Source: a virus | Taxonomy: Duplodnaviria; Heunggongvirae; Uroviricota; Caudoviricetes | DNA length: 8,108 nucleotides | Strand: one strand, 5' to 3' | IMG/VR virus record: IMGVR_UViG_2690316086_000017 | In this document: piece by piece, positions 4,931 to 5,542 of the stretch | Position numbering within the stretch: the stretch's first letter is position 1 | Layout of the letters: each line of letters opens with the position of its first letter | The notes under the pieces: generated by a model | The model's database searches: none | What the model was told of the DNA's origin: nothing | What the model saw: the letters and a program-made list of their open reading frames with translations, nothing else | Made by a program: the position numbers and the translations under genes

Positions 4931-5111
4931 GGCACACCTCCTGACGAATACGGGCGGCGAATACAGCAACACAACCGGACGGGCAACGGCTACGCGCTTC
5001 GCGTTCCGTCCAGGCGGTTACGTGGATGATTTGATGTTCTGACGCGCCAAAGATGATAAAGCGCCAGAGAAAGGCGGTTTGAGAATGTACAAGGGTAGGG
5101 ATAGTAGCCAT
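4920..5111 (-). CDS. Icd-like small protein (host cell division inhibitor Icd-like / Ash-like family), 63 aa
   Basis: ATG at 5111 with GAGGAGG 8 nt upstream. MATIPTLVHSQTAFLWRF...TAWTEREARSRCPSGCVAVFAARIRQEVCHVQ resembles Icd-like proteins of P4-like prophages, from memory. The track's in-frame upstream extension (to 5480 and beyond) contains an intrinsic terminator, so the short form is preferred. Confidence 0.5.
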   Translation of the reverse strand: MATIPTLVHSQTAFLWRFIIFGASEHQIIHVTAWTEREARSRCPSGCVAVFAARIRQEVCHVQ

Positions 5112-5271
5112 GTTGGCAGCCTCCTCAGTGTGGTTAAGATAACCGCCACCGGAAACGCCAATTTCGCTGGTGGCGGACTGTACAGGGTTGGCGTAACCGG
5201 ACACTGAAGAAACCGGCGCGGATTGCTCCGCCCCCGTACAGCCCACCATTGATAAGGTGTGACTATGCGGC

Positions 5272-5294
5272 ACAAAAAAACACGCGGGGCGCGT
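5272..5294 (-). terminator. intrinsic terminator inside the early-operon leader (minus strand)
   Basis: Minus-strand RNA ACACGCG-CCC-CGCGUGU (7-bp GC-rich stem, 3-nt loop) followed by seven U (plus A-run 5272-5278). Confidence 0.55.
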
Positions 5295-5542
5295 GTTATG
5301 CGCTTCAGTTTTGCCCAGGACGCCAATCCCGGCACCCGTTTTATGAGGTGCGCGGGAATCATAGCTATTTTCGACACTGGCGATCAACTGGTTTTTTTCT
5401 CCGATATTCAGGGCCAGAAAACGCCACACAAAGGCCGTTTGTGTGTGTACAAGGTGTGGTATATGATTTACGGCAACCATAACGGCTCCTAGTTTACGTT
5501 GTTGGTTAGACGCCCCGTATGTGTTCCCAGCACTGCGGGGCG

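What the first reader, a model, noticed from the sequence alone, without database searches (positions are those of the whole stretch)
5044..5480. Structured leader of the early operon: duplicated Icd-like N-terminal segment with an intrinsic terminator inside the reading frame
The minus-strand frame is open from 5480 to 4920. It contains two homologous Icd-like N-terminal segments (MVAVNHIPHLVHTQTAFVWRF at 5480 and MATIPTLVHSQTAFLWRF at 5111), each with a strong RBS. Between them sits a strong intrinsic terminator (5272-5294). A terminator inside an apparent ORF argues that the upstream part is a leader or noncoding RNA region, not part of a 187-aa protein. In P4, immunity works by premature termination in the leader of the replication operon, controlled by a small CI RNA, and Icd/Ash-like ORFs are annotated in that region.
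Basis: partly seen in the sequence, partly recalled or inferred. Interest (0 to 1): 0.7.

Follow-up and report, generated by a model that had tools for sequence, protein, structure and literature searches.

The report
P4-type RNA immunity module in satellite
The "terminator inside a reading frame" is the known RNA immunity switch of phage satellite P4, sitting inside a long P4-eta-like reading frame; the duplicated Icd start is a recombination scar, so this is a new example of a known system rather than a new one.

Summary
The minus-strand frame 5480..4920 is open. It holds two homologous Icd-like N-termini with strong ribosome-binding sites and an intrinsic terminator (stem 5297-5279, T-run).

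The region between the two copies holds two Rfam-significant RNAs. The first is an isrK/P4-seqA-like sRNA (5351-5275) with its own conserved promoter (5387-5358); the terminator belongs to it. The second is a C4/P4-CI antisense RNA (5253-5166). Its a' loop pairs with the Shine-Dalgarno of the real icd/kil gene (ATG 5111). Loops and targets covary across 49 loop variants.

P4 has the same layout: PLE, seqA, CI, then Kil (Icd-like), all nested in frame inside eta. The 186-codon ORF has P4 Eta's architecture (Phage_ASH plus ICD-like).

The upstream "Icd N-terminus" is not an RNA target. It is the 5' stump of an O157-type icd allele (97.6% identical), joined in frame at about 5400 to an isrK-C4-icd cassette.

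In passing: the frame is open for 409 codons from the alpA stop, antisense through real genes, and this recurs in related satellites.

The parts
5589..5617 (-). Upstream regulated sigma-70 promoter (TTGACA-17-TACTAT), proposed analogue of P4 PLL; predicted start near 5582
   Evidence: 10 of 12 matches. It is overlapped by operator palindromes. The sequence is shared at 97.6% with O157-type satellites.
5571..5610 (.). Two copies of the 10-bp palindrome GGTAATTACC (5571-5580 and 5601-5610), 30 bp apart. One lies in the promoter spacer and one at about +1. Putative operators of the divergent RHH protein.
   Evidence: D2, I2. L003 and L004 carry different palindromes at the same place. Operator function is inferred.
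5611..5784 (+). Divergent 57-aa ribbon-helix-helix (Arc / YlcI-YnfO-like) gene, putative repressor of the upstream promoter
   Evidence: Weak Arc and YlcI_YnfO_N hits. Conserved as a protein in L003 and L005.
5497..5543 (-). Leader hairpin (CGCCCCG...CGGGGCG, -18.4 kcal/mol) followed by UCUAACCAACAACG. The hairpin position and the motif are conserved in L002-L004. Function unknown.
5400..5490 (-). SD AGGAG (5490-5486), ATG 5480 and about 27 codons of an O157-type icd allele. This is the upstream 'Icd N-terminus': a 5' stump that now serves as the start of the 186-codon eta-like ORF.
   Evidence: 97.6% identical to L002, where it continues as an intact 65-aa Icd. No ICD-like HMM hit on its own.
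5396..5403 (-). Mosaic junction (GGAGAA|AAAAACCAG). Upstream matches L002 only; downstream matches L003/L004 only.
   Evidence: BLAST break points at query 254/255 and sequence comparison. The junction is present in 143 of 5426 complete E. coli genomes.
5358..5387 (-). Internal promoter TTGATC-18-TATGAT, analogue of P4 PLE. Its -10 ends 6 nt before position 1 of isrK (5351).
   Evidence: A cTTGc...TAT..T consensus lies at fixed distance upstream of isrK in 72 loci. P4 has TTGCCT...TATAGT at the same place.
5275..5351 (-). isrK / P4-seqA-like small RNA. Hairpin 1 comes first. Hairpin 2 displays b1 (5330-5320). The linker holds a1 (5310-5303). The intrinsic terminator has its stem at 5297-5279 and a U-tract to about 5273.
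   Evidence: RF01394, 66 bits against gathering 50, E 9e-13. Fold. Own-versus-foreign pairing with C4 loops.
5166..5253 (-). C4 / P4-CI-type antisense RNA. A 17-bp closing stem encloses two hairpins. The a' loop UUUCUUCAGUGU is at 5212-5201 and b' UUACGCCAACCC at 5196-5185.
   Evidence: RF01695, 77.6 bits against gathering 45, E 2e-14. MFE -46.9 kcal/mol, z = -5.1.
5143..5176 (-). seqC-like hairpin displaying b2 (UUGGCG, 5161-5156) in its loop. Its 5' arm (5176-5169) is also the 3' strand of the C4 closing stem, so the two structures exclude each other.
   Evidence: RNAalifold on 26 sequences including P4: 8 of 10 pairs show compensatory changes.
5120..5131 (-). a2 target ACACUGAGGAGG, which is the Shine-Dalgarno of icd/kil and is complementary to the C4 a' loop
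   Evidence: Duplex -20.1 kcal/mol. The own a' is in the best 5% of foreign loops in 41 of 49 loop variants.
4920..5111 (-). icd / P4-kil homologue (63 aa), the first gene controlled by the RNA module
   Evidence: NF033153 phage_ICD_like, 57.1 bits against cut-off 25. P4 Kil scores 76.1 bits on the same model.
4920..5480 (-). 186-codon eta-like ORF: icd stump, then the conceptual translation of the PLE-like promoter, isrK and C4 (Pfam Phage_ASH), then Icd
   Evidence: PF10554 at aa 40-133 and NF033153 at aa 137-180. P4 Eta has PF10554 at 20-144 and NF033153 at 144-191. BLASTP against P4 Eta gives E 1e-7.
4920..6149 (-). 409-codon open frame starting 14 nt after the alpA stop (6166-6164). It runs antisense through the RHH gene and ORF62.

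Best explanation
The region is the early-operon control region of a PICI-like, P4-related satellite (E. coli E2865, next to tRNA-Pro). It carries a P4-type RNA immunity module nested inside an eta-like reading frame.

Shown by sequence and comparison:
- An internal promoter (5387-5358) drives an isrK/seqA-like sRNA that ends at the intrinsic terminator (5297-5273).
- Read-through RNA contains the C4/CI antisense RNA (5253-5166).
- The a' and b' loops of C4 are complementary to a1/b1 inside isrK.
- They are also complementary to b2, in a hairpin loop at 5161-5156, and to a2, the Shine-Dalgarno of icd/kil at 5131-5120.

Inferred by analogy with P1 c4 and P4 CI:
- In the resting state, C4 masks the icd ribosome-binding site.
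- Together with termination at the isrK terminator and Rho-dependent polarity, this keeps the downstream replication genes off.

Inferred from P4 eta:
- Transcripts from upstream carry ATG 5480 with a strong Shine-Dalgarno. Those upstream promoters are the RHH-controlled one at 5617-5589 and possibly the alpA promoter.
- Ribosomes translating the 186-codon frame run through the terminator, C4 and a2/b2. That prevents these structures and pairings from forming and makes such transcripts immunity-insensitive.

Origin of the duplicated Icd N-terminus:
- It is a by-product of recombination. The left part (promoter, leader, first ~27 icd codons) comes from an O157-type satellite that has no RNA module.
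- It is joined in frame at about 5400 to an isrK-C4-icd cassette of the L003 type.
For: RNA genes:
- The Rfam hits are well above gathering scores in the window. The same pair and order occur in P4 itself and in L003, L004 and L005.
- 77 of 126 C4 loci from 120 species-representative stretches have isrK directly upstream.
- A promoter consensus sits upstream of isrK in 72 loci.

Pairing scheme (49 unique a'/b' combinations):
- a' versus the downstream site: own -13.5 against foreign -7.1 kcal/mol; own is in the best 5% in 41 of 49.
- b' versus isrK: 35 of 49.
- a' versus isrK: 29 of 49.
- In the window, a'/a2 is -20.1 and b'/b1 is -16.7 kcal/mol.
- The b2 hairpin has compensatory changes in 8 of 10 pairs.

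P4 homology:
- P4 has PLE, isrK (8692-8615), C4 (8507-8420), then AGGAGG and ATG 8365 for a 65-aa ICD-like Kil.
- In P4 the frame is open 217 codons, with in-frame ATGs giving ORFs of 197-199, 137, 111 and 65 codons. The window gives 409, 186, 109 and 63.
- The Phage_ASH plus ICD-like architecture is identical.
- The P4 mechanism is summarised in PMC10111431. IsrK is described as the structural homologue of seqA in PMC4825925.

Open frame under selection in this clade:
- There are no stops in this frame in any member. That includes 13 loci with a 42-nt longer spacer, while the other two frames average 2-3 stops.
- In GTDB loci the ORF start overlaps the upstream gene's stop by ATGA.

Mosaic origin:
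- Window 5650-5397 is 97.6% identical to L002. Its icd 3' part is only 85.6% identical to L002.
- L003 (91%) and L004 (81%) match only from 5397/5396 onward.
- L002 has no C4 or isrK.
Against: - Nothing here measures transcripts, termination or translation. The direction of regulation is taken from P1 and P4. In Salmonella Gifsy-1 the homologous IsrK activates translation of the ORF that overlaps C4, so the sign of the isrK effect is uncertain.
- Across the whole isrK-C4 family the frame is stop-free in only 34 of 68 loci. The phases between isrK, C4 and the next gene take all values modulo 3. Translation through the RNAs is therefore a clade feature, not a family rule.
- Icd against P4 Kil gives no pairwise BLASTP hit. 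The homology rests on a shared HMM.
- The primary P4 paper (Forti 1999) could not be read.
- The direction of the recombination event (cassette gain or loss) is inferred only from identity discontinuities.
Confidence: 0.72

Rival explanations
1. Purely non-coding leader. The 186-codon frame is never translated, and its openness is a passive consequence of conserved RNA sequence plus chance.
For: The middle of the ORF is dictated by RNA genes. For Salmonella orf45 the nucleotide sequence is conserved while the amino-acid sequence varies. Only 34 of 68 isrK-C4 loci keep the frame open, and phases vary across the family.
Against: In the window's clade the frame is open in every member, despite a 42-nt spacer insertion and many substitutions that create and remove stops in the other two frames. 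A strong SD plus ATG sits at its head, both here and in L003/L004 with a different N-terminus. Starts overlap the upstream stop by ATGA in other genera. P4 eta has the same architecture and is reported to be translated. Salmonella orf45, which starts at the C4 AUG, is translated.
Confidence: 0.2
2. The two Icd-like N-terminal segments are functional RNA repeats (seqA/seqC-like targets of the antisense RNA) rather than a recombination relic.
For: They flank the C4 gene as seqA and seqC flank cI in P4. Both contain CCYUGUACA, which can pair with the 5' strand of the C4 stem in the window and in L003 (sequence).
Against: The covarying targets map elsewhere: b1/a1 in isrK and b2/a2 at 5164-5120. 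L004 has a different C4 5' strand but the same icd N-terminus, so there is no covariation. The upstream copy is missing in P4, L003 and L004. It is simply the start of an intact icd in 600 or more E. coli genomes that lack C4.
Confidence: 0.05
3. The 186-aa (or 409-aa) product is a functional protein in its own right: an 'Ash'/Bro-network regulator with a C-terminal Icd domain.
For: Pfam keeps a Phage_ASH family. PGAP annotates long 'Icd-like' proteins such as the 310-aa CDS in L130. PMC10111431 treats Phage_ASH as a Bro-network domain.
Against: Phage_ASH aligns exactly to the translated promoter, isrK and C4 stretch. The N-terminal 223 aa has no family hit. That part is antisense to genes that are themselves conserved as proteins. 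The N-terminal parts differ completely between elements.
Confidence: 0.08

Closest known systems
Satellite phage P4 immunity region (PLE - seqA - cI/CI RNA - seqC - kil, nested in eta; upstream PLL and vis)
   Same: Same order and same Rfam families: isrK, which is seqA, and C4, which is CI. Both have an internal constitutive-type promoter and an ICD-like first gene whose SD is the antisense target. Both have a hairpin displaying b2/seqC and a long in-frame ORF that starts upstream of the internal promoter, next to an alpA/vis homologue. The Phage_ASH plus ICD-like architecture is the same.
   Different: The spacer between isrK and C4 is 21 nt here and 107 nt in P4, and the loop specificities differ. 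The eta-like ORF takes its start from the stump of a second icd allele. It is preceded by a divergent RHH-repressor cassette and an operator-controlled promoter rather than by a delta-activated PLL. The frame from alpA is 409 codons and runs antisense through real genes. The downstream genes are of PICI type (DUF4222, RepA helicase, terS, capsid), not epsilon/alpha.
Phage P1/P7 immI operon (c4 antisense RNA - icd - ant)
   Same: A C4 RNA is processed from the same transcript as its target. The a'/b' loops pair with a2/b2 at the icd ribosome-binding site, and a1/b1 copies lie upstream. Icd is the first gene (established knowledge of P1).
   Different: No antirepressor ant follows icd here; the next gene is an unrelated 80-aa ORF. 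The a1/b1 element here is a terminated sRNA of the isrK type. The c4-a1b1 model scores only 21 bits, below its gathering score of 46.7.
Salmonella Gifsy-1 isrK - orf45 (STnc1160) - anrP locus
   Same: An isrK sRNA with its own promoter and a leaky terminator. The read-through RNA folds so that the middle hairpin of isrK pairs with the downstream C4-type region, and the same long-range pairing appears in the MFE fold here. An ORF starting at the AUG at the 5' end of the C4-type RNA is translated there.
   Different: There, short IsrK acts in trans as an activator and orf45 stops at the start of anrP (AUGA). Here the frame from that AUG (5249) runs straight into icd without a stop, and no antirepressor follows.

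Membership tests
C4 antisense RNA (Rfam RF01695; P1 c4 / P4 CI) | Covariance-model score at or above the gathering threshold, with a closing stem enclosing two hairpins | tested here: met
   77.6 bits against 45, full-length 1-87, E 2e-14. The MFE fold reproduces the structure at -46.9 kcal/mol, z -5.1.
C4 antisense RNA (Rfam RF01695; P1 c4 / P4 CI) | Loops a' and b' complementary to a2/b2 at the ribosome-binding site of the next gene, and to a1/b1 upstream | tested here: met
   a'/a2 is -20.1, b'/b2 is -11.5 and b'/b1 is -16.7 kcal/mol. The own-versus-foreign test over 49 loop variants is positive.
C4 antisense RNA (Rfam RF01695; P1 c4 / P4 CI) | Mature RNA produced by processing (RNase P / PNPase) of the operon's own transcript | not testable with these tools
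   Needs Northern blots or RACE.
isrK / P4 seqA RNA (Rfam RF01394) | Covariance-model score at or above the gathering threshold, including the 3' intrinsic terminator | tested here: met
   66 bits against 50, positions 1-77 of 77. The terminator scan agrees.
isrK / P4 seqA RNA (Rfam RF01394) | Own sigma-70 promoter immediately upstream | tested here: met
   TTGATC-18-TATGAT at 5387-5358. The consensus is conserved in 72 loci and in P4. Activity was not measured.
isrK / P4 seqA RNA (Rfam RF01394) | Hfq binding | not testable with these tools
   Experimental property.
P4-type nested kil/eta arrangement | First gene after CI is a Kil/ICD-like protein of about 65 aa | tested here: met
   NF033153 scores 57.1 bits for the window Icd and 76.1 bits for P4 Kil. 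Pairwise BLASTP alone finds nothing.
P4-type nested kil/eta arrangement | Longer ORF in the same frame that starts upstream of the internal promoter and spans seqA, CI and seqC | tested here: met
   The frame 5480..4920 gives 186 codons and the frame from 6149 gives 409. P4 gives 197-199 codons. The Pfam and NCBIfam architecture is the same.
P4-type nested kil/eta arrangement | Start of the long ORF adjoins the stop of the alpA/vis homologue (translational coupling) | tested here: inconclusive
   ATG 6149 lies 14 nt after the alpA stop but has no obvious SD. In L047, L094 and L020 the start overlaps an AlpA-like stop by ATGA. The strong-SD start at 5480 is not next to alpA.
P4-type nested kil/eta arrangement | Translation of the long ORF makes upstream-promoter transcripts insensitive to immunity; Rho-dependent terminator (timm) downstream | not testable with these tools
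   Needs reporter fusions, stop-codon mutants and a Rho inhibitor.
P1 immI operon | icd is followed by, and translationally coupled to, the antirepressor gene ant | tested here: not met
   The next ORF (4930..4688, 80 aa) has no Pfam or NCBIfam hit and is annotated hypothetical.
Icd-like protein (NCBIfam NF033153), upstream copy | HMM match at or above the cut-off | tested here: not met
   The upstream segment (5480-5343) gives no hit at E <= 1. Only the first ~27 codons are icd-derived.

The most novel reading that the evidence does not exclude
In this family of E. coli PICI-like satellites the whole sense strand from the alpA stop to the icd stop (409 codons here) is kept translatable. It runs antisense through real regulatory genes placed in the phase where third codon positions coincide. 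The proposed purpose is that ribosomes can escort RNA polymerase from the alpA promoter across divergent promoters, intrinsic terminators and the RNA immunity module. The ORF would be selected for the act of translation, not for its product. That would extend the P4 eta principle and could explain how AlpA induction switches on the satellite's replication operon.
Probability: 0.4. Interest if true: 0.65.

Novelty: new member of a known kind. Interest (0 to 1): 0.4.

Why it matters
- It places a complete P4-type RNA immunity switch (seqA/isrK, CI/C4, kil/icd nested in eta) in a capsid- and terS-carrying PICI-like island.
- It shows that the switch is an optional cassette, present in some satellites of this family and absent in close relatives.
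- It corrects annotation. The 'ash family protein' and the upstream 'Icd-like' pseudogenes are conceptual translations of RNA genes and of an eta-like escort frame. Pfam Phage_ASH, used elsewhere as a P4 'epsilon' marker, in fact detects the CI/seqA region.
- If the long frame really is kept open for translation-coupled read-through, it gives a testable mechanism for induction of these islands. It would also be a clear natural case of selection for translatability across antisense genes.

Tried and rejected
1. A universal reading-frame constraint over all isrK-C4 loci. Rejected: only 34 of 68 are stop-free and all phases modulo 3 occur. The constraint is clade-specific.
2. The AUG at the 5' end of C4 as evidence of coding. 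It is present in 113 of 126 loci, but many ORFs from it stop after 5-18 codons, so its conservation is probably an RNA feature.
3. Pairing of the C4 5' stem strand with CCYUGUACA in both Icd N-termini. No covariation in L004. Rejected.
4. The terminator-like hairpin at 5445-5425 inside the stump. It is part of intact icd coding sequence in L002 and is not conserved in copy 2. There is no support for a function.
5. L002 as a recent deletion derivative of a window-type element. This is disfavoured because identity drops from 97.6% to 85.6% across the junction.
6. Direct BLASTP of Icd against P4 Kil found nothing. The link needed the shared HMM.
7. Forti et al. 1999 (PMC94026) is not held. The P4 mechanism is cited through PMC10111431 and my own recollection.
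8. Technical failures. Two paper searches and a paper look-up and a repeat finder on the minus strand failed on input rules. One simulation timed out and one failed on a file name; it was rerun.

Full report
**Observation**

- The minus-strand frame from ATG 5480 to the stop at 4922-4920 is open, 186 codons.
- A 46-nt direct repeat lies at 5418-5463 and 5058-5103, 76% identical. It encodes the two Icd-like N-termini.
- The DNA alignment scores 40 against 15.4 +/- 2.2 for shuffles. The protein alignment scores 80 against 20.4 +/- 4.3.
- Both ATGs have strong Shine-Dalgarno sequences: AGGAG at 5490-5486 and GAGGAGG at 5126-5120.
- The terminator is a hairpin at 5297-5279 followed by a T-run.

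**What lies between the two copies**

An Rfam scan of the window gives two full-length hits on the minus strand.
- isrK (RF01394) lies at 5351-5275, 66 bits against a gathering score of 50. The terminator is its 3' end.
- C4 antisense RNA (RF01695) lies at 5253-5166, 77.6 bits against 45.
- A sigma-70-like promoter, TTGATC-18-TATGAT at 5387-5358, ends 6 nt before position 1 of isrK.
- In 72 isrK-C4 loci from other species the same positions carry a cTTGc...TAT..T consensus.
- C4 folds into the expected closing stem with two hairpins (-46.9 kcal/mol, z -5.1).

**Pairing scheme**

- The a' loop of C4 (UUUCUUCAGUGU, 5212-5201) is complementary to ACACUGAGGAGG (5131-5120). That sequence is the Shine-Dalgarno of the downstream icd (-20.1 kcal/mol).
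- b' (5196-5185) pairs with the loop of isrK hairpin 2 (b1, 5330-5320; -16.7 kcal/mol) and with b2.
- I scanned one genome per species for a C4 core pattern and obtained 120 stretches. Of the 126 C4 loci then held, which include the E. coli loci and the window, 77 have an isrK-like element directly upstream.
- I compared each locus's own loops with the loops of other loci across 49 distinct a'/b' combinations. The own a' binds the downstream site far better than foreign loops do (-13.5 against -7.1 kcal/mol; own in the best 5% in 41 of 49).
- The same holds for b' against isrK (35 of 49) and a' against isrK (29 of 49). This is covariation between regulator and targets.
- RNAalifold on 26 sequences, P4 included, predicts a hairpin at 5176-5143 that displays b2 (UUGGCG) in its loop. 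Compensatory changes occur in 8 of 10 pairs.
- The 5' arm of that hairpin is the 3' strand of the C4 closing stem, so the two structures exclude each other.

**Comparison with P4**

- P4 (NC_001609) has the same order on its minus strand. A promoter (TTGCCT...TATAGT) is followed by isrK at 8692-8615, C4 at 8507-8420, and AGGAGG with ATG 8365.
- That ATG opens a 65-aa protein matching the ICD-like model NF033153 at 76.1 bits. The window Icd scores 57.1 bits. This protein is P4 Kil.
- The P4 frame is open for 217 codons. In-frame ATGs give ORFs of 197-199, 137, 111 and 65 codons. The first overlaps the stop of vis. The second is the GenBank 'cI' CDS. The third is the AUG at the 5' end of CI.
- The window gives 409, 186, 109 and 63 codons.
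- P4 Eta is Phage_ASH (aa 20-144) plus ICD-like (144-191). The window ORF is Phage_ASH (40-133) plus ICD-like (137-180).
- Phage_ASH is therefore the conceptual translation of the internal promoter, seqA and CI.
- According to Forti et al. 1999, as summarised in PMC10111431:
  - The promoter internal to eta gives a transcript that terminates early through the CI and seqA interactions and is processed to CI.
  - Kil is translated on occasional read-through.
  - Full-length Eta is translated only from the upstream late promoter, coupled to the alpA homologue.
  - Translation of eta prevents termination.
- PMC4825925 calls IsrK the structural homologue of seqA. It also shows that an ORF starting at the AUG of the C4-type RNA is translated in Salmonella.

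**Origin of the upstream Icd-like copy**

- Window 5650-5397 is 97.6% identical to an O157-type satellite (L002). There the same promoter, leader, SD and ATG open an intact 65-aa icd, and there is no isrK or C4.
- L003 (91%) and L004 (81%) match the window only from 5397/5396 onward. Upstream they have a different ORF start (MLNHTTHPQG...) in the same frame.
- The icd 3' part of L002 is only 85.6% identical to the window's icd.
- The simplest reading is an in-frame recombinant. An O-157-type left arm, ending after about 27 icd codons (GGAGAA), is joined to an isrK-C4-icd cassette (AAAAACCAG...).
- The junction occurs in 143 of 5426 complete E. coli genomes. The undivided O157-type icd is matched in about 756, a count that includes some window-type two-piece matches.
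- The stump alone does not match the ICD-like model, and its ribosome-binding site is not a C4 target.
- L003 carries two tandem modules, which suggests that icd sequences are frequent crossover points.

**Is the long frame translated?**

- Across the whole isrK-C4 family the answer is not uniform. The frame set by the C4 AUG is stop-free from isrK to the end of C4 in 34 of 68 loci, against 14 of 68 for each other frame. Spacings take all values modulo 3.
- Within the window's clade (b1 = GGGAUUGGCGU) every member is open and in phase. That includes 13 loci with a spacer 42 nt longer, while the other frames carry 0-6 stops each.
- In other genera the first ATG of the long ORF overlaps the stop of the upstream gene by ATGA.
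- Together with P4 eta, I consider translation from upstream promoters likely but unproven.

**Upstream context**

- A consensus-like promoter, TTGACA-17-TACTAT at 5617-5589, is overlapped by two GGTAATTACC palindromes.
- It faces a divergent 57-aa ribbon-helix-helix gene that is conserved as a protein in other elements.
- L003 and L004 have other palindromes at the same place.
- I read this as a repressor-controlled promoter, the functional counterpart of P4 PLL. This is inference.

**Beyond the finding**

- The frame is open for 409 codons, starting 14 nt after the alpA stop. It runs antisense through the RHH gene and a second conserved gene.
- It has 0 stops where the other two frames have 10 and 20.
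- The same is true of satellites with different antisense cargo. The single open frame is 333 codons in L002, 488 in L003, 456 in L004 and 435 in L130.
- Two or three overlapping open segments tile the interval in L005, L127, L128 and L129. One element, L131, is an exception.
- Resampling synonymous codons of the antisense genes keeps the frame open with P = 0.054, 0.009 and 0.107 in three elements. Shuffling the intergenic parts as well gives P < 3e-4.
- All 15 antisense genes in the 8 elements that keep sense-strand coverage lie in the phase where third codon positions coincide.
- This looks like selection for translatability, an extension of the eta principle. It rests on comparison only.

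**Verdict**

The finding is a genuine member of a known system: P4/P1-type antisense RNA immunity nested in an eta-like ORF. PMC10111431 already noted that the C4 and isrK models hit several Gram-negative PICIs. The new elements are the recombinant origin of the ORF's start and the very long antisense-overlapping frame.

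Noticed in passing
window 4920-6149 (-); also L002, L003, L004, L005, L127-L130: A 409-codon open frame starts 14 nt after the alpA stop and runs antisense through two conserved + strand genes. It has 0 stops against 10 and 20 in the other frames. It recurs (333-488 codons, or tiled by overlapping ORFs) in satellites with different antisense cargo. L131 is an exception. All 15 antisense CDSs in the 8 elements with sense-strand coverage lie in the phase where third codon positions coincide.
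   Followed up: partly
window 5082-5363 (-); L126 (P4) 8330-8702: Pfam PF10554 (Phage_ASH) aligns to the conceptual translation of the internal promoter, isrK/seqA and C4/CI, both here and in P4 Eta. P4 epsilon belongs to PF25738. A survey of P4-like satellites (PMC8628076) used PF10554 as its 'epsilon' marker, so that marker in effect detects the RNA immunity region.
   Followed up: partly
window 5142-5480 and 5634-6149 (-) (L001 5171-5509, 4502-5017): RefSeq annotates these stretches as pseudogenes ('ash family protein', 'Icd-like protein, missing C-terminus') and does not annotate the + strand RHH gene. The RNA genes are not annotated at all.
   Followed up: yes
L003 1546-1731 and 2000-2209: This E. 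coli satellite carries two tandem isrK-C4-icd modules. The second lies inside a 'frameshifted Icd-like' pseudogene.
   Followed up: no
window 5497-5543 (-); L002, L003, L004 at the same place: The 5' leader has a stable hairpin followed by UCUAACCAMCAACG. Both are conserved although the promoters, operators and hairpin sequences differ. There is no Rfam hit and the function is unknown.
   Followed up: no
window 5571-5610; L003 ~1290-1350; L004 ~1290-1370: Each element has its own palindromic operator pair at the divergent promoters (GGTAATTACC; TACGTACGTA-type; GTGTTCAACAC). Each is paired with a related but distinct RHH/YlcI-like protein, which suggests exchangeable repressor/operator specificities.
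   Followed up: no
window 6105-6137: A strong + strand intrinsic terminator (14-bp stem, T6) closes the divergent RHH-ORF62 unit. It lies within codons 5-15 of the 409-codon minus-strand frame. On the minus strand the hairpin lacks a U-tract.
   Followed up: partly
C4 loci L006-L125: An ATG at the 5' end of C4 (AUGG) is present in 113 of 126 loci, although the ORF from it often stops within 5-18 codons. The isrK-to-C4 spacing falls into a spread short class (66-97 nt from the b1 anchor to the C4 AUG; window clade 78-81) and a long class (120 nt, 13 loci).
   Followed up: partly
window 5425-5445 (-): An 8-bp hairpin (CACACAAA/TTTGTGTG) followed by GCGUUUUCUG lies inside the icd stump. It is also present in the intact O157-type icd but not in the downstream icd copy.
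   Followed up: no
window 1-1713, 2557-3957 (-); L001: The island (int, alpA, DUF4222, RepA-type helicase, terS, HK97-type capsid) sits next to tRNA-Pro downstream of yejM in E. coli E2865. Its gene content looks like a capsid-forming PICI rather than a P4-type satellite, yet it uses P4-type RNA immunity.
   Followed up: no
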